21,147 nucleotides of DNA from an uncultured Fidelibacterota bacterium (GTDB lineage: Bacteria > Fidelibacterota > Marinisomatia > Marinisomatales > UBA1611), in NCBI GenBank assembly GCA_913040915.1, contig CAJWHW010000032.1:1-21147 (forward strand), in the 5' to 3' direction. Below, piece by piece: positions 3,001 through 9,000 of the stretch. Position numbers: made by a program. Positions within the stretch are counted from its first letter, which is position 1. Every line of letters begins with the position of its first letter.

Positions 3001-6000
3001 TGTGTAAGTACTTATTGAGTCCACCTACTGTGCCGATCCAAACTGCCCCATTTTTATCTTCTGTAATACACGTAATTTGAGATGATGAAATACCTCCTGA
3101 TAAGGAAGGGTCAAATACATGGCCTTCTACCTCAAAATTATCTTCATTATATATATCTTTTACTAGATCTTTATCCAGAAAATAGATTCCTTCTCTTTCC
3201 GAACCTACCCAGACATTACCATTATTATCCTGAAATAAAATCCGGATAATAAGATCAGAATTAAAAAACTTAGTCTCCATTGCAAATCCATCAATAATTA
3301 AAAGACCAGTAGCAGTCCCAGCCCAGATATATTCATCATTTGAAACCATTAAGTCAAAGACTCTATTCTCCGGAATTTGCTGAGTCGCAGGCAAAGATTG
3401 ATCGTTCGAAAAACGAATCAAATCATCCGTCATTGTATTGATTCGAATGATGCCATCATCTGTTGCAACCCATATAATTTCATCATCAATTACTTCAACG
3501 TCTAAAATATGATCTATATTACCTAAGAATGATTTTTCATATTCATAGTCCCGAATACCATCCACTGACAAATATTCAAGGCCAAAACCAGTAGAAGCCC
3601 AAATCATTCCACTTTCCTGTGTAGCAATGGAATAAATCTTTTCATTCTTTAAACCCCATTCATTCTCACGATCAAATTGTATAGAATGGAATTTTGATTG
3701 AACATAAGAATGAAAGCTGATTCCATTTTGATTGGTCCCGATCCAGACATGACCAGCTTTATCTTCTATGAAACATTCAACAGTATTATCTGTAAGTGAA
3801 TTTTTATCGATAGGATCATGAGAGAAATGGTTAAATAATGTATCTAAGCCACCATGGTAAATATTTGGACTCTCATATAAACAATTGATACCCCGATTAT
3901 TTTTTGTAGTAAACCACAGATTTCCAGATTTCTCTGCAATCAAGATTTTTGATATATCATTTTCAATAATACTCTCAGCGTAGGGGGTCTCCTGATAATT
4001 GATAAAATGATTTGATTCGGGTTTGAATCGGGATATCCCATCTCTAGTTGCAATCCACAATTCTTTTCTCACCTTATCCCAGTCAAGATCTACAATAGTA
4101 TTTGATACAATAGAGTTTTTCCCGATGGTAAGTTTGTAGTGCTCTTCAACATTATTAAATTTTTTATTTATTTTATATAAACCATTACTTGTCCCCACCC
4201 AAAGGGTACCTTGTTCACCCTGTTCAATTACTTCTACCCTGCCAATATTTTCCCCATTACCAGTTTTAAATTCTTGAATATCTCCCGTTTCAGAATCAGG
4301 GTAAAATAAACCATAATCTGCCCCAATCCATATACCACGGTCTTCATCCATAAAAAGATTATAAATACTATTATTATTAAATAAGTCTGAGCGGCAAGTC
4401 TGACAAACTAAATCATTATTTTCGGGTAAAGTTTTAAATACGTGGTTTTTCCCTCCCTTACCAGATAAAATCCAAAGAGATCCATTTGCATCTTCAACAA
4501 TAATTTCGGGTGAAATAATTACATGACCTTCAGCGGTAGCTGAATTAAATGGACGGTCAAATTCACGCTTTGATGGATTAAATCGACTCACACCTAATTC
4601 TGTTCCAACCCATATTTTATTTTCAGAATCTTCAAAAATAGATGATACCTGATTACCAAGAAGCGATGAATTATCAAAAGACTTCATATGGTAATTCACA
4701 AAGCCATAGCCGTCAAAAATATCAAGACCATTTTCAGTTCCCAAGTAAATAAGTCCCTTTCGATCTTCATAAATTACTTTTACAGTACTTTCGGATAAAC
4801 CATCATGCACAAGAATGTTTTTAAATGAAAAATCTGGCTGGCAAAAAAGGTAGCCCGAGCATAATAAACCAATTACTTTATAAATATATAACGTGCGGAG
4901 AGCCATCAGGTAATTTAGCCTGAATAGATTAAAAAAAAGGTGGCGAAATTTCGCGCCACCAATATATATTGATTTTTAATGCTTTTATAAATTATTTTAC
5001 TAGAAGTGCTTTTTTTGTAGCTACTTGAGCTCCAGTCTGTACTCTGATAAAATACATACCTGTAGGTTGGTCTGTAGCATCCCAAAATAATGTATGAGAG
5101 CCTGCTTCCAACACTTTCTTTGACTGTACTACATCTACCTCCTTACCAATAGTATTATACACTGTTACTTGTGTTACAGCTTCTTTAGGCAGGGCAAAAG
5201 ATATCGTTAATTTGGGGTTGAAAGGATTTGGATATAATCGCTGAATCTGGATTGAATTAGGCATAACCCCTTCTACTAATTCCTTACTTTCAGAAAAGTT
5301 GACTCTGATCTCGCCAGCATTAGCACTGGCCACTACTGTATTGGTAAAATCATCAACAGTCAGTCCTGAAATATTAAATTCAATTTTTTGACGTGAATTT
5401 TTTCCTGTCATATCGTACCCGATAATAATGATTTTATTACCATTTTTAGCAATTTTTAGTGACCACCCTTCCGGCAGTAGAATTTGATTCAAATCAGTCA
5501 CAGTCAGATCAGTATTATCTATTTCAAATTGAAATCCGCTAATCTCATCAATGCTTTCTATTTTAGCTATGTTACCATTCTCAGATTGCAGAATGTTAAA
5601 TGTTCCATTGGAAAGTGCAGAAGTGCTCTGAGGGTTATTTCCTCCTAACAACATTTGAACAAGATTAATAACATCAATAATATTCACATTGTTATCACCA
5701 TTCATATTAGCTGCCTGGTATGCACAACTTTCTTGATTATTCTCAATTACAACATCTACTAAACTTAAAATATCCAATATATCAAAAATAAAATTACCAT
5801 TTTCATCCACACTGCCATCTATATTACCTCTTACCCAGACATTTGCATTATCACAATTATCACAAGCGTCTCCTAAACCATCCAAATCAATATCGGCTTG
5901 GCTAGGATTATAATCAACCGGACAATTATCACTCGGATCGTTAATATCATCCCCATCTGCATCCATGGGAACATTTTCAACTGCGGCATTTATCGCTGCC

Positions 6001-9000
6001 AAAATAGCAGCTTGATTAAAGCCTGCGCTAGTATATACAACTTCCATATTGTGATCTAGAACGACGTTATGCGGAATGGACCCCGTACCAAAAAGATTCC
6101 ATGCGGTGTTGTCTGCATCTCCATTGAGGATTGGATAAGTAATACCAAAAGATGATGACCAACCCGCGCATGAATAGGATGTATATTGAAAACCATGAGC
6201 AACCACTTGGACAGGTGCACCTGCGGCTTGGTAGTCTTGCCAAATTTGTTCGGTAATCGGAGCCTCCGATTGACATGGACCTCACCAAGAAGTAAAAAGC
6301 ATTAGCCAGGTTACTTTATAACTACCACCATTTATATCACCATTGCATTCCGTATATAAATCAAAATCTCCTGCCCCATTCGCACAAATCGGTTCTGTAA
6401 AGTTAGGAGATATATCGCCAACCTGTAGCGGTAATCCAAAAATACCACTGACAATTATTGTATGTATAATTAATGTTCTTAGCATTTTTATTTTCTTTTA
6501 CAACTAGCCATATTAATAAAGAATTAATCAATTAAACAAATTTAAAAAATCATGCTATAATTGAAACGTATACCATCATTATAAGGAGGAATTTGGCGGC
6601 AAATACCATTGCTGCAGAATAAACCACCCTGAATGGAGCCGTACATGATAGTTAATCGATGGGATGAACTTATATTATAGGATAATTCTATGGAAACCCA
6701 TCTCTGTTGTCCAAATTTTGGTGTTGATGTACGCTTTCTTTCACCGGTAAAATACTTAATATCTCCATATATCAAGGCTTCAAGAGGATTATAATATGGA
6801 TCTACAGTTTTGGGGCCATCAAATGCACTGGATTGGTCATGTACCAAGGTTAATGACCACTTTGATGCTTTACTAATAGTTAATGTTACCATACGGTTGA
6901 TTTGTAATCTTTCTCGGCCTCCGTCCAAATTATATAATTGTGTTTGGTAATCAACAATAAAAGAATCAGGGTTTTCAGAATCAATCAAATTCCATTTATC
7001 ATAAGTTGAACTGTAAAATGTAGCATTGCCACGGTTCACATTTTTTTTGGTTCTTTCCTGGTATTCAAAACTGAAACCCATGGCGTATCCATTATTAAAC
7101 GTATATGAAAGTTCTAAAGGATAAGTTATTGTTTTCGTTTCCTGCCAATACTTTGCTTCTACCTTATAGGGGTCAGAAAAACTTGTATCAAACACTTCCA
7201 TAGAATCAATTATCTCAAATTCATAGCCATAGGAATTAAATGTCGTTGTATCATACAGCCAATAAGAGTTAGTCACCATATCCGACTGAAACCCATCAAA
7301 ATAATTGATCATATATAGAACATCTTTATTATTCCCTCTTCCCAATCGGTAATAGAATCTACTGTCAATTAGAAAACCACTTAATTCAAAATAATTTTCC
7401 CAGAAAGGTAAACTGGATGGATCGCTACTAGGTAAAATATTATTCAATGCATTCCGCTCCCAGTCCGTAGATGTTAAAGACATCCAAGTATCATTTCGGC
7501 TTAAATGAGCATATTGCCCTAAAATATTTAAACCTAATGGCAGGGAACCAGTTAATTCGGCTTGGACGCCGCGTTCATCATTATAATTATATAAGTGAAC
7601 AGCACGCCCCATCAAAGTCATATTGGTTTCTCGACCAAGTGTTGGCATCATTTGAAACCCAATCCTATTACCATAATCGTCAGCATTTAAATCAGTATGA
7701 CTCCAATCAAAACTGTATTGTTTATATTCTGTCGTAAGTCCCCAGTTTCCAAAATATAAATTCAAATTACTGTACATACCATATCCACGCTTTAATGTAT
7801 CGTGGGCAACATCATTGTAGAAATCAGTTTTCTCAAATGATTGTTTATCTACGTATTCAAAGAAGAAATCCCAAGCTGTAAAAGATGCTGAACCGTAAAT
7901 ACCTTTTATTTTATGATTTACAAAAGCAGTTCCTTCTTCTTTTTTTTGATGCTCTTCATTAGAGTTCAGTTGTGTTAAACCAATAGAATAAGAATCAAAA
8001 TCATATTGAAGGTGATTTCCAAACATATTATGATTGTTATTAAAATATGGTAATCTATTATCATTCTCTCCTAAATCCCAAATATCCGCATTACCATTGA
8101 TGTGACTTAAGGTAAAGTCTCCCTTTGTATATCCTAAAAATAATCCTCGGGTACCGTTATCAAAATTTGTCATTTGATCATCAATTTGATTTAATACCAA
8201 ACCTCGTCCCCAGAATTCGTATAAGTCCCCTAATTTGATATTGAAATTTTCATCAGAATATTCTAATCGAAATTTTCTGATATCATTTGTTGTAAAACCT
8301 ATTTCTGGAGGATTGGAATATTCATATTGAACCCATGCAGAAAGATTTTTATAAAACATATTTATATCGAGTCTGTTTTCAGCAAAAGAATAAAAATCAT
8401 AACTATCTCCAAAACTGGAAATAATCGAACCATTATAATTAAAATCATTTGCGAATATTTTTCCGCAAATGAGAAACAGAATTATTATTTTTTTCATGAA
8501 TTAGGATTCAGACGATTTTGAATCCTTGAAACCAAGTATAACCTTGATCTGATGCTCGATCTCAACTTCCTCACCGGGTGAGTACCCCTGATGCCTCCAT
8601 TTGATACTACCATCTTTATCAACAAGTATAAGAGTTGGCATTATAAGACCGTTCAGCTTTTTAGCTATTTGCTGATTTGGATCCAACCCCACATAAAATT
8701 TATGATTTTGACTATTAATATAGGATTTTACTTTTCCTATACTTCTGGGTGTATCCTGATTGATCATAAGAACCTTAAATCCATTTTCAGAATATTTTTG
8801 ATGGTACCTGTCTAAATGCTTCATAACCTTTTTGCAAGGCTTACACCATGTTGCCCAAAAATCGATAAGTAGCGGACCATCTTGAAGAAGTTCATTGATT
8901 GAAGTCTTTTTTCCATTCAATAATTTAATTTTCAAATCAGGAACAGTGCGGCCTGCTACACCTTCATTAGCAATCAGCGTGCTAAAGAGAAAAATGAATA

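What a model noticed while it worked through the whole genome (the two positions that open the first line are those of the whole stretch)
4992..6485. Two type-IX-secreted thioredoxin-fold selenoproteins split by the gene caller
C32:4992-6485(-) (g01454+g01453) is one 497-aa gene read through an in-frame TGA: signal peptide, AhpC/TlpA-like thioredoxin fold with the active site W-U-G-P-C (Sec in place of the first Cys), a Ca-binding/dockerin-like linker and a T9SS type-A C-terminal sorting domain. A second gene of the same kind, C8:65904-67466(-) (g00623+g00622, 520 aa, motif Y-U-G-T-C, then a right-handed beta-helix and a T9SS CTD) lies on another contig. Both are predicted to be selenoproteins exported to the cell surface by the type IX secretion system.
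Evidence so far: Frames joined by one TGA; Pfam on the read-through proteins: AhpC-TSA/Redoxin/Thioredoxin_8 across the TGA (below the curated cut-off for the C8 protein, just above it for the C32 protein) plus Por_Secre_tail. Among 53 other genomes of the family, all 19 listed matches to the C32 gene that span residues 22-444 or more carry exactly one in-frame TGA, and 28 of 28 matches to the C8 gene that cover residue 63 carry a TGA, while the 3 matches that start after it carry none. Hairpins follow both TGAs. SelA, SelB (C16) and Sec-SelD (C6) are present.
(Added by a program. Inside this text positions count along the whole contig: contig position 1 is position 1 of the stretch shown here. 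"Call 12" and the like, gene names such as g00115 and contig names such as C1 are that model's own, and its searches are not shown. The text may have been shortened before it was handed on; [...] marks where a part breaks off. The agent that wrote the report below was given it as the finding of a first reader that could run no searches.)

Follow-up and report, generated by a model that had tools for sequence, protein, structure and literature searches.

The report
Secreted selenoprotein redox enzymes in Marinimicrobia
A marine SAR406-type bacterium encodes thioredoxin-like enzymes that use selenocysteine and carry a type IX secretion tag, so they probably act at the cell surface; ocean surveys had already listed these protein families, but not their export tag or their conserved partner genes.

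Summary
Window 4992-6485(-) is one 497-aa gene read through a single TGA at codon 68, giving the motif W-U-G-P-C. In 30 family loci, 27 keep TGA at this site and 3 have Cys. An invariant GGAGGCUCC hairpin with compensatory changes follows every TGA and is missing from the Cys forms. SelA, SelB and Sec-SelD are present. tRNA-Sec is missing from this 85%-complete assembly but present in 29 of 53 relatives.

The domains are: signal peptide, ResA/TlpA-fold domain (Z 17.1), TSP3 calcium repeat, dockerin-like module, beta-sandwich, T9SS type-A CTD. SprA and PorU are encoded. The C8 gene (520 aa, Y-U-G-T-C, CTD) is also confirmed.

It is less novel than claimed. Both families appear in the 2008 GOS selenoproteome as Prx-like 1/3 and Prx-like 2. 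The C8 domain matches NCBIfam NF053656. The C32 protein is not GOS_C; it shares only GOS_C's C-terminal module.

New here are the T9SS tag and a conserved cassette: TlpA-like gene, DUF6029 outer-membrane barrel with an invariant Cys pair, then redoxin. The cassette recurs across the phylum. In Bacteroidota, Omp28 takes the redoxin's place.

Export and Sec insertion remain unproven experimentally.

The parts
4992..6485 (-). Whole selenoprotein gene: 497 codons plus the stop at 4992-4994. The gene caller split it at the TGA.
   Evidence: Full-length homologues of about 490-510 aa in relatives each have one TGA.
6282..6284 (-). UGA codon 68, read as selenocysteine. It is the first residue of W-U-G-P-C.
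   Evidence: 27 of 30 aligned family loci have TGA here and 3 have TGC/TGT. A 246-nt contig from an RNA library (6131-6376, 0 differences) spans it.
6255..6271 (-). SECIS-type hairpin: a 7-bp stem AAUCGGA/UCCGAUU around the loop GGC. The core GGAGGCUCC is invariant. The loop starts 17 nt after the UGA.
   Evidence: Pair 23-33 is CG in 19 and UA in 8 sequences, with 0 broken. Pair 22-34 is GC in 13, UA in 8, with 6 broken. Covariation score 0.282 against 0.117 for shuffles, reached by 0 of 500 shuffles. RNAalifold finds the same 5 inner pairs. The hairpin is absent from the 3 Cys homologues.
6429..6485 (-). Predicted Sec-type signal peptide, about residues 1-19 (MLRTLIIHTIIVSGIFGLP).
   Evidence: Read from the sequence. 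Modelled as a helix at residues 2-15 with pLDDT 56-60. Homologues have similar hydrophobic N-termini. No signal-peptide predictor was run, so this is inferred.
5976..6428 (-). ResA/TlpA/DsbE-type thioredoxin-fold domain, about residues 20-170. U68 and C71 sit at the start of helix 69-87. P138 in the I-P-H-N-V-V stretch is nearly invariant and probably the cis-Pro.
   Evidence: AhpC-TSA 27.4 bits. VIA-align Z 17.1, rmsd 2.1 over 138 residues to 3gl3 (DsbE); Z 15.7 to ResA 2f9s. Foldseek TM about 0.8 to ResA. Conserved columns.
5841..5972 (-). Thrombospondin type-3 calcium-binding repeat, about residues 172-215, with invariant Asp residues and Cys188/208/211.
   Evidence: The profile of alignment A2 hits COMP at E 1.2e-32 and thrombospondin-2 at E 1.3e-31. 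Invariant columns. The NF045500 C-terminal module matches residues 144-280.
5631..5840 (-). Dockerin-like double EF-hand module, about residues 216-285.
   Evidence: Weak profile hits to type-I dockerins, E 0.18-0.42, on the right stretch. PF00404 is precomputed on homologues P0014 and P0058. Pfam did not call it on this protein, so this is a lead only.
5271..5618 (-). Beta-sandwich domain, about residues 290-405, possibly cohesin-like.
   Evidence: Modelled as all-beta with pLDDT about 76-91. One Foldseek row matches a cohesin+FN3 construct, 2w1n, at rank 10. The nearest Atlas cluster is 'Cohesin', score 0.83, lead only. Docking against the dockerin-like module gave weak support: 0.53 against best control 0.00.
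4995..5237 (-). T9SS type-A C-terminal sorting domain, residues 417-497, ending in KKALLVK.
   Evidence: PF18962 at 42.6 bits against 27. TIGR04183 at 43.3 bits against 23.
6542..8497 (-). Upstream neighbour: DUF6029 outer-membrane beta-barrel of 651 aa, with an invariant Cys pair C628/C633 (C-S-N-G-I-C) before the last strand.
   Evidence: PF19494 at 73.8 bits. AF2 model is all long beta-strands, pLDDT 62.9. Foldseek matches only generic large OM barrels, TM about 0.4. Invariant Cys. The same pair is present in 18 of 19 Bacteroidota homologues.
8501..9022 (-). Next gene upstream: TlpA/ResA-like periplasmic thiol-disulfide oxidoreductase of 173 aa, with a signal peptide and W-C-K-P-C.
   Evidence: Redoxin 81.1 bits and AhpC-TSA 76.6 bits. 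Sequence. ResA-subfamily hit at 83.7 bits.
9172..10494 (-). Conserved 440-aa protein of no known family that heads the syntenic block.
   Evidence: No Pfam or NCBIfam hit. Syntenic in relatives.

Best explanation
Window 4992-6485(-) is a single selenoprotein gene. SelB and a minimal SECIS hairpin that begins 11 nt downstream recode UGA-68 as selenocysteine. The Sec is the attacking residue of a U-x-x-C redox centre in a ResA/TlpA-type thioredoxin fold.

The protein has a signal peptide, a calcium-binding TSP3 repeat, a dockerin-like module, a beta-sandwich and a type-A T9SS sorting domain. The likely route is export through the Sec pathway, folding in the periplasm, then transfer across the outer membrane by the T9SS. 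It would then be displayed on or released from the cell surface of a marine Marinimicrobia (SAR406) bacterium. There it most likely carries out selenol/thiol-disulfide exchange on surface or external substrates.

It is the last gene of a conserved cassette: a periplasmic TlpA-like CxxC protein, a DUF6029 outer-membrane barrel with an invariant Cys pair, then a surface redoxin. I infer that these three work together.

The C8 gene (Y-U-G-T-C, CTD) is a second, unrelated-in-sequence case of the same design.

Shown: the reading frame, the Sec/Cys pairs, the hairpin conservation, the fold, the domains, the synteny and the presence of the machinery genes. Inferred: actual Sec insertion, export, direction of catalysis and partnership with the neighbours.
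For: Frame and motif.

Sec site: 27 of 30 family loci have W-U-x-x-C and 3 have W-C-T-[YT]-C.

Hairpin: the core GGAGGCUCC is invariant, including at synonymous sites. There are compensatory CG-to-UA changes with 0 of 27 pairs broken at pair 23-33, and the covariation score beats 500 of 500 shuffles.

Phylum-wide spread: 117 of 301 genomes have homologues, mixing one-TGA and no-TGA forms.

Sec machinery: SelA, SelB and SelD with TGA. tRNA-Sec scores above the Rfam cut-off in 29 of 53 relatives, including the same-genus genome G005.

Genetic code: TGA is a normal stop in this genome.

Sequence check: an RNA-library contig bridges the TGA with 0 differences.

Fold: Z 17.1 to DsbE and 15.7 to ResA, with U68 just before helix 69-87.

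Export: the CTD is above both curated cut-offs. The genome encodes SprA, PorU (563 bits against 420) and about 45 other CTD proteins. The 271-aa Cys homologues are redoxin plus CTD only, so this redoxin family is tied to the CTD repeatedly.

Oxidising compartment: four invariant Cys in the TSP3/dockerin part fit an oxidising environment.

Cassette: DUF6029 lies upstream of the redoxin in all 10 family loci, and TlpA is seen in the 8 that reach far enough. The cassette is present in 8 of 12 distant loci of the phylum. In Bacteroidota, TlpA-like genes lie next to DUF6029 in 17 of 19 loci and Omp28 in 14 of 19.

Reductant supply: a DsbD-type gene exists at C10.
Against: - No tRNA-Sec was found in this assembly. 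The assembly is 85% complete with only 30 tRNAs recovered, so the absence is uninformative but real.
- There is no proteomic or 75Se evidence.
- The hairpin is small. A 71-nt fold of the region is no more stable than shuffles (z -0.93, 28 of 200 shuffles fold as well).
- The C8 hairpin shows little true covariation: 2 cells, matched by 35 of 500 shuffles.
- PorV-like genes score below the NF033710 cut-off (131.6 bits against 250).
- Many paralogues of about 300 aa keep Sec, TSP3 and dockerin but have no CTD. Surface location is therefore not obligatory for the family.
- No reductant is known outside the outer membrane, so turnover at the surface is unexplained.
- The RNA-library contig may derive from DNA carried into the library.
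Confidence: 0.7

Rival explanations
1. The protein is a genuine selenoprotein but works in the periplasm. On this view the CTD is vestigial, or serves only for late disposal or anchoring. The enzyme would be a periplasmic ResA/TlpA-like reductase recycled by DsbD, like its CTD-less paralogues.
For: Paralogues of about 300 aa with Sec, TSP3 and dockerin have no CTD. A periplasmic reductant route exists: DsbD at C10 and the neighbouring TlpA. T9SS cargo folds in the periplasm before export (established knowledge).
Against: The CTD is full length (model positions 1-73 of 75), above cut-off, and conserved to the terminal K-x-x-L-[LV]-K in all full-length orthologues. The Cys homologues also carry it. 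SprA and PorU are present.
Confidence: 0.15
2. The protein is a surface selenoprotein whose U-x-x-C centre is not a disulfide exchanger. It could instead be a peroxidase-type antioxidant, or a binding site for a metal or metalloid such as Hg, Cu or Se.
For: Pfam's best redox hit is AhpC/TSA. Peroxiredoxins such as AhpE and Bcp score Z 15.2-15.4, almost as high as DsbE and ResA. No external reductant is known.
Against: The motif is W-U-x-x-C at the helix N-terminus, as in ResA, TlpA and CcmG. It is not the T/S-x-x-C peroxidatic motif. NCBIfam's best redox hits are ResA, DsbE and TlpA. The neighbouring gene is a TlpA-like reductase.
Confidence: 0.1
3. The TGA is a real stop. On this view the locus is two genes or a pseudogene, or the TGA is decoded as Trp, Gly or Cys by something other than the Sec system.
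For: Gene callers split the gene. Some public predictions print W at this site. tRNA-Sec is not in the assembly.
Against: The thioredoxin fold and the AhpC-TSA match span the TGA. TGA is conserved at a catalytic position where other homologues have Cys, never Trp encoded by TGG. The conserved hairpin occurs only after TGA. TGA closes 225 of 836 long frames, so the genome does not use code 4 or 25. The Sec machinery is present.
Confidence: 0.04

Closest known systems
[quoted passage not shown]
   Same: It is the same family. Dataset S3 holds SWUPSC 19 times and EAPQTE 8 times. Read JCVI_READ_1018099 begins with the same 30 residues as the homologue in L034. Figure S1D aligns the TSP3/dockerin module as 'Unknown_3'.
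   Different: The GOS reads were too short to show the beta-sandwich and the T9SS CTD. The paper gives no organism, no export route and no gene neighbourhood. I infer the 'Prx-like 1' label from the order of headings in the file, not from reading the whole list.
NCBIfam NF053656 'TUGYCR motif thioredoxin fold (seleno)protein' and GOS 'Prx-like 2' (applies to the C8 gene)
   Same: The C8 protein scores 135.9 bits against a cut-off of 100 over residues 27-170. GOS 'Prx-like 2' reads carry F-H-E-Y-U-G-T-C-R, and one has an NPFNP...CTD-like tail.
   Different: I saw no statement that the family is T9SS cargo. The middle part of the C8 protein, possibly a beta-helix, is supported only weakly.
GOS_C = NF045500 'Omp28-related selenoprotein'
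   Same: It shares the C-terminal TSP3/dockerin-like module (model positions 243-376). In relatives it lies in the same locus: L052:2080-3276 scores 609 bits, carries U-P-Y-C, and sits between the 440-aa gene and TlpA.
   Different: The N-terminal Sec domains are different families. The C32 protein reaches only 105.6 of the 200 bits needed. No full GOS_C gene is in this genome.
ResA / TlpA / CcmG / DsbE periplasmic thiol-disulfide reductases
   Same: Same fold (Z 15.7-17.1, TM about 0.8), the W-C/U-x-x-C motif at the helix N-terminus, and an extracytoplasmic location.
   Different: Sec replaces the nucleophilic Cys. About 330 extra residues of adhesion or anchoring modules and a T9SS CTD are attached. 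The known enzymes are membrane-anchored or periplasmic and are recycled by CcdA or DsbD.
Porphyromonas gingivalis HBP35 (PMC2907840 and PMC3120885; I saw titles and abstract openings in the search listing)
   Same: [quoted passage not shown]
   Different: It uses Cys, not Sec, and is linked to heme binding. No sequence comparison was made here, so homology beyond the shared domain classes is untested.
TlpA-like / DUF6029 / Omp28 cassette of Bacteroidota (found here)
   Same: Same gene order and same barrel family, with the same C-x-G-G-x-C pair. The third gene encodes an outer-membrane-associated CxxC protein.
   Different: In Bacteroidota the third gene is the Omp28 lipoprotein with Cys. Here it is a Sec-containing ResA-fold protein exported by the T9SS. 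The function of the cassette is unknown in both.

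Membership tests
Bacterial SelB-dependent selenoprotein gene | An in-frame UGA at a position where homologues have Cys | tested here: met
   27 loci have TGA and 3 have TGC/TGT at the same column. One-TGA and no-TGA forms are mixed across the phylum.
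Bacterial SelB-dependent selenoprotein gene | A SECIS hairpin immediately downstream of the UGA, with G in the apical loop | tested here: met
   A 7-bp stem with loop GGC, starting 17 nt after the UGA. The core is invariant and the lower stem shows compensatory changes. Single-sequence stability is not exceptional. The expected spacing and loop rule are recalled from the bSECISearch literature, not taken from a call.
Bacterial SelB-dependent selenoprotein gene | selA, selB, selD and tRNA-Sec present in the genome | tested here: inconclusive
   selA, selB and selD are all above their cut-offs. tRNA-Sec was not found in this 85%-complete assembly. It is found in 29 of 53 relatives, including the same genus.
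Bacterial SelB-dependent selenoprotein gene | Selenium demonstrated in the polypeptide | not testable with these tools
   This needs 75Se labelling or mass spectrometry.
ResA/TlpA-type thioredoxin fold (Pfam AhpC-TSA/Redoxin clan) | The fold, a C/U-x-x-C motif at the N-terminus of helix alpha-1, and a family HMM score above cut-off | tested here: met
   AhpC-TSA 27.4 bits against 26. Z 17.1 to 3gl3. U68 and C71 lie at the start of helix 69-87.
T9SS type-A cargo | A C-terminal sorting domain matching PF18962 / TIGR04183 above cut-off | tested here: met
   42.6 bits against 27 and 43.3 bits against 23 for C32. 46.9 and 44.1 bits for C8.
T9SS type-A cargo | An N-terminal Sec signal peptide | tested here: inconclusive
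   A hydrophobic N-terminus with a basic n-region is seen in the sequence and in homologues. No predictor was available.
T9SS type-A cargo | T9SS translocon and sortase encoded by the organism | tested here: met
   SprA in pieces at contig ends on C14 and C25 (305, 248 and 158 bits). PorU at 563 bits against 420. PorV-like genes are only below cut-off.
T9SS type-A cargo | Secretion that depends on the T9SS | not testable with these tools
   This needs a reporter fusion or fractionation.
GOS_C / NF045500 Omp28-related selenoprotein | A full-length match to the model above 200 bits | tested here: not met
   105.6 bits, covering model positions 243-376 only. A true member in a relative scores 609 bits.
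GOS Prx-like 1/3 selenoprotein family | Sequence identity of the motif and flanks with listed GOS reads | tested here: met
   SWUPSC...EAPQTE reads are in Dataset S3 and one is near-identical to a family homologue. The Unknown_3 alignment equals the TSP3/dockerin module.
NF053656 TUGYCR-motif thioredoxin-fold (seleno)protein (C8 gene) | A domain model score above 100 bits | tested here: met
   135.9 bits over residues 27-170.
Dockerin / cohesin modules | Family HMM or structural matches | tested here: inconclusive
   Dockerin: E 0.18-0.42 against solved dockerins, and PF00404 on two homologues only. Cohesin: one Foldseek row and an Atlas lead of 0.83. The domain was not folded alone.

The most novel reading that the evidence does not exclude
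The cassette is a redox relay that spans the outer membrane. Electrons would pass from cytoplasmic thioredoxin through DsbD to the periplasmic TlpA-like protein. They would then pass through the invariant C-x-G-G-x-C pair of the DUF6029 barrel to a surface CxxC/UxxC protein. That surface protein is Omp28 in Bacteroidota, and a Sec-redoxin or the Omp28-related selenoprotein in Marinimicrobia.

This would give abundant ocean bacteria a cell-powered extracellular reductase. Selenocysteine would be chosen because it resists irreversible oxidation in oxic seawater.

A motif-limited scan suggests that, apart from SelD, the two T9SS redoxins may be the main reason this genome keeps the Sec machinery.
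Probability: 0.12. Interest if true: 0.9.

Novelty: new variant of a known kind. Interest (0 to 1): 0.58.

Why it matters
Bacterial selenoproteins are generally treated as cytoplasmic or periplasmic redox enzymes. Here two abundant ocean selenoprotein families, known since 2008 only as anonymous read fragments, are assigned to Marinimicrobia (SAR406). They turn out to be modular proteins tagged for type IX secretion.

If they are exported, they would be selenoenzymes working outside the outer membrane. That raises a concrete question: what re-reduces them there?

The conserved cassette of TlpA, a DUF6029 barrel and Omp28 or a Sec-redoxin gives that question a testable form. It also gives a first functional context to DUF6029, to Omp28 and to GOS_C.

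There is a practical consequence too. Gene callers split or mis-translate these genes, printing W at the Sec site. Marine MAG annotations therefore miss a whole class of surface proteins.

Tried and rejected
- The tRNA-Ser(UGA) at window 14557-14646 scores 46.3 bits on the tRNA-Sec model, just under the cut-off of 47. ARAGORN shows an ordinary 7-bp acceptor stem and a UGA (Ser) anticodon, so I rejected it as tRNA-Sec.
- The full-length database hits P0013-P0041 looked like Cys orthologues but carry W at the Sec site, meaning TGA was read as Trp by a caller. They are not evidence for Cys forms.
- The first genome-wide scan for other selenoprotein genes timed out. The faster UxxC/CxxU scan gave 22 candidates, of which only C8 and C32 look real by eye. 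A wider scan gave 206 candidates that I could not pass to Pfam. The selenoproteome size is therefore not established.
- Haft & Tolstoy 2025 (mSystems, selenoprotein neighbourhoods) and Haft 2023 (J Bacteriol) are not held. They may already describe this neighbourhood.
- Literature searches for 'selenoprotein' + 'type IX secretion', 'selenocysteine' + 'T9SS', 'selenoprotein' + 'dockerin', 'Omp28' + 'selenoprotein' and 'selenocysteine' + 'Marinimicrobia' found nothing relevant.
The whole-model VIA search reports only the redoxin domain.
- Complex prediction of the dockerin-like module against the beta-sandwich gave weak support: 0.53 against best control 0.00. At that level only 18 of 157 solved pairs, and both mismatches that passed, lie at or below 0.60. 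The runs agree in at least 91% of contacts and the partner pLDDT is at least 57. The two pieces are neighbours in one chain, so contact may be plain domain packing.
- The DUF6029 model is of only moderate confidence and matches only generic large barrels. The strand count and the side on which the Cys pair lies could not be settled.
- The RNA runs cover only patches of the stretch. Uncovered parts say nothing about expression.

Full report
**Observation**

Under table 11 the minus strand of window 4992-6485 holds two in-frame ORFs: 6282-6485 (67 aa) and 4992-6206 (404 aa). Reading the single TGA at 6282-6284 as U joins them into a 497-aa protein with W-U-G-P-C at residues 67-71.

Pfam places AhpC-TSA across the TGA, at residues 49-151 with 27.4 bits against a cut-off of 26. 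It places Por_Secre_tail at residues 417-493 with 42.6 bits against 27. Redoxin, Thioredoxin_8 and Thioredoxin fall below their cut-offs.

The second gene, G000:C8:65904-67466(-), reads as 520 aa with Y-U-G-T-C at residues 62-66. AhpC-TSA scores 21.8 bits, below cut-off, and Por_Secre_tail 46.9 bits.

**Is the TGA selenocysteine?**

TGA is an ordinary stop in this genome. It closes 225 of 836 stop-to-stop frames of 300 codons or more.

A search of the 54 genomes of the family with residues 1-165 found matches in 43. By my count of that table, 57 of the 65 matches with E <= 6.4e-10 that cover residue 68 have exactly one in-frame TGA, and 8 have none.

I examined 30 loci in detail. Of these, 27 read W-U-x-x-C, with x-x being GP, SP, PS, SS, ST or GS. 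The other 3 read W-C-T-[YT]-C from TGC or TGT.

Every TGA is followed by the invariant nucleotides GGAGGCUCC (codons E-A-P), invariant even at synonymous positions. This forms a hairpin whose loop starts 17 nt after the UGA. The three Cys genes lack it.

On the 27-sequence alignment, the pair at columns 23-33 is CG in 19 sequences and UA in 8, with none broken. The pair at columns 22-34 is GC in 13, UA in 8 and broken in 6. The covariation score is 0.282 against 0.117 for shuffles, reached by 0 of 500 shuffles, and the slid controls collapse. RNAalifold recovers the five inner pairs.

On the other side, a single-sequence fold of 71 nt is no more stable than shuffles (z -0.93).

Across the phylum, 117 of 301 sampled genomes have homologues at E <= 1e-10, a mixture of one-TGA and no-TGA forms.

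SelA, SelB and a SelD with its own in-frame TGA are present. tRNA-Sec is not in this 85%-complete assembly, from which only 30 tRNAs were recovered. The near-threshold hit in the window is a normal tRNA-Ser. tRNA-Sec is found above the Rfam cut-off in 29 of 53 relatives, including the same-genus genome.

A 246-nt contig from a metatranscriptome library matches 6131-6376 without a difference and bridges the TGA. The TGA is therefore not an assembly error, although such libraries can carry DNA.

For the C8 gene, 63 of 63 family matches covering residue 63 carry a TGA. A 6-bp hairpin, AAGCCG-GUU-CGGCUU, sits at the same distance. It is 93.9% paired but has little true covariation.

**Anatomy**

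An AlphaFold2 model built from 57 aligned sequences has mean pLDDT 79.5. It shows:

- An N-terminal helix, the presumed signal peptide.
- A thioredoxin-fold domain at residues 20-170, with U68 immediately before helix 69-87.
- A poorly ordered stretch at residues 175-215.
- A helical module at 236-281.
- A beta-sandwich at 292-401.
- A second beta-sandwich at 413-495.

The first domain superposes on DsbE (3gl3: Z 17.1, rmsd 2.1, 138 residues), ResA (Z 15.7) and many TlpA, CcmG and Bcp relatives.

A profile search of solved structures gives COMP and thrombospondin type-3 repeats at E 1e-32 for the acidic stretch. It gives weak hits (E 0.18-0.42) to type-I dockerins for the helical module.

The cohesin-like label for residues 290-405 rests on three weak items. 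These are one Foldseek row (2w1n), an Atlas lead of 0.83 and a weak docking score (0.53 against 0.00). It remains a lead.

Invariant Cys188, Cys208, Cys211 and Cys254 fit a protein that matures in an oxidising compartment.

The family comes in three architectures:

- About 500 aa with a CTD.
- About 300 aa ending after the dockerin-like module, with no CTD.
- 271-aa Cys forms that are redoxin plus CTD only.

**Export**

The genome encodes about 45 other CTD proteins. It also encodes SprA in pieces at contig ends, PorU at 563 bits against 420, and several PorV-like genes that stay below the curated cut-off. Export by the T9SS is therefore a well-founded prediction, but it has not been shown.

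**Who and where**

The closest named relatives are MAGs and a single-cell genome labelled Candidatus Neomarinimicrobiota or Marinimicrobia. The DNA occurs in marine metagenomes from several studies.

**What is already known**

Dataset S3 of Zhang & Gladyshev 2008 holds this family. SWUPSC occurs 19 times, and one read has the same first 30 residues as the homologue in L034. [quoted passage not shown]

The C8 type is their 'Prx-like 2'. It is also NCBIfam NF053656, 'TUGYCR motif thioredoxin fold (seleno)protein', at 135.9 bits against 100.

A 2026 review table equates GOS_C with NF045500. The C32 protein matches only that model's C-terminal module, and this genome has no full GOS_C gene.

I found no paper linking selenoproteins to the T9SS. 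The two reviews I searched do not mention secretion. Haft & Tolstoy 2025 could not be read and may bear on this.

**The neighbourhood**

Upstream on the same strand lie three genes:

- A DUF6029 outer-membrane barrel (6542-8497).
- A TlpA/ResA-like W-C-K-P-C protein with a signal peptide (8501-9022).
- A 440-aa protein of no known family (9172-10494).

The order 440-aa gene, TlpA, DUF6029, redoxin, followed by a Reg_prop/Y_Y_Y/SpoIIE sensor, holds in the ten family loci examined. TlpA is seen in the eight loci that reach far enough. Three relatives carry a second TlpA-DUF6029 cassette followed by two or three tandem Sec-redoxins.

The cassette is also present in 8 of 12 loci from other families and classes of the phylum, including loci whose redoxin uses Cys.

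In relative G019, the gene between the 440-aa protein and TlpA is a true Omp28-related selenoprotein (GOS_C), at 609 bits with U-P-Y-C.

In Bacteroidota, DUF6029 was found in 17 of 101 sampled genomes plus two others. Across the 19 loci, a TlpA-like gene lies within 1.5 kb in 17 and an Omp28 gene in 14. The Bacteroidota Omp28 translated here (L151) carries E-D-Y-T-G-x-x-C-x-x-C-P, matching the U-x-x-C context of GOS_C.

The barrel's C-x-G-G-x-C pair just before the last strand is kept in 18 of 19 Bacteroidota homologues and in all 8 Marinimicrobia homologues. In several it is the only Cys pair in the protein.

The barrel model is all long beta-strands but only moderately confident, at pLDDT 62.9. 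It matches only generic large barrels. One paper relates DUF6029 to Wzi-like barrels (passages seen).

**Mechanism**

The best-supported reading is a selenol/thiol oxidoreductase that is exported by the T9SS and works at the cell surface together with the TlpA-like protein and the DUF6029 barrel.

Shown: gene structure, Sec/Cys pairs, hairpin, fold, domain set, synteny and the presence of the machinery genes.

Inferred: Sec insertion, export, substrate, direction of catalysis and any physical link among the three gene products.

The main rival is that the enzyme acts in the periplasm. This draws on the CTD-less paralogues and on the lack of any known reductant outside the outer membrane. A DsbD-type gene could feed TlpA.

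**Verdict**

The selenoprotein families themselves are already known. The new elements are the T9SS tag, the full modular architecture, the assignment to Marinimicrobia, and the conserved cassette of TlpA, DUF6029 and Omp28 or a Sec-redoxin.

Noticed in passing
window 6542-8497 (-); also L151-L169: DUF6029 outer-membrane barrels carry an almost universal C-x-G-G-x-C-R pair just before the last strand. In Bacteroidota they sit between a TlpA-like gene and an Omp28 gene (17 of 19 and 14 of 19 loci). This cassette links three poorly understood families.
   Followed up: partly
L052:2080-3276 (+) (relative G019): An Omp28-related selenoprotein (NF045500, 609 bits; GOS_C) with U-P-Y-C lies in the same locus in relatives, between the 440-aa gene and TlpA. 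It is absent from this window. Similar module hits occur at the same place in L056, L057 and L058.
   Followed up: partly
L056:10315-16102, L057:2426-9262, L061:6806-11966: Some relatives have a second TlpA-DUF6029 cassette followed by two or three tandem Sec-redoxin genes. That gives up to five selenoprotein genes within about 18 kb.
   Followed up: partly
G000:C6:66560-67486 (-): SelD itself has one in-frame TGA, so it is a Sec-containing SelD.
   Followed up: partly
window 14557-14646 (-): tRNA-Ser(UGA) scores 46.3 bits on the Rfam tRNA-Sec model, just under the cut-off of 47. It has a normal 7-bp acceptor stem and a Ser anticodon. A second tRNA-Ser(GGA) lies beside it at 14669-14756.
   Followed up: yes
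window 1529-4906 (-): A 1125-aa Reg_prop / Y_Y_Y / SpoIIE (PP2C) sensor-phosphatase lies directly downstream of the selenoprotein gene. It is syntenic in the family loci that extend past the redoxin (L052, L056-L059, L061), so it is a possible regulator of the cassette.
   Followed up: no
window 9172-10494 (-): A 440-aa protein with a signal-peptide-like N-terminus and no Pfam or NCBIfam match is conserved at the head of the block across several families of the phylum.
   Followed up: no
proteins P0013, P0014, P0027, P0034, P0035, P0038, P0041: Public gene predictions of full-length homologues print W at the Sec site, meaning TGA was read as Trp by a caller. Most other database entries are the roughly 400-aa C-terminal fragments. 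The family is systematically mis-annotated.
   Followed up: yes
window 10553-13629 (-): Two class-I synthetase genes of the Glu/Gln family lie side by side. One is GlnRS-like (557 aa) and one GluRS-like (466 aa).
   Followed up: no
window 6255-6289: In contigs of other organisms (runs X18 and X2), the only part of the stretch that matches at 92% or more is this 35-nt piece, which covers the TGA and the hairpin. This shows nucleotide-level conservation of the SECIS region between species.
   Followed up: partly
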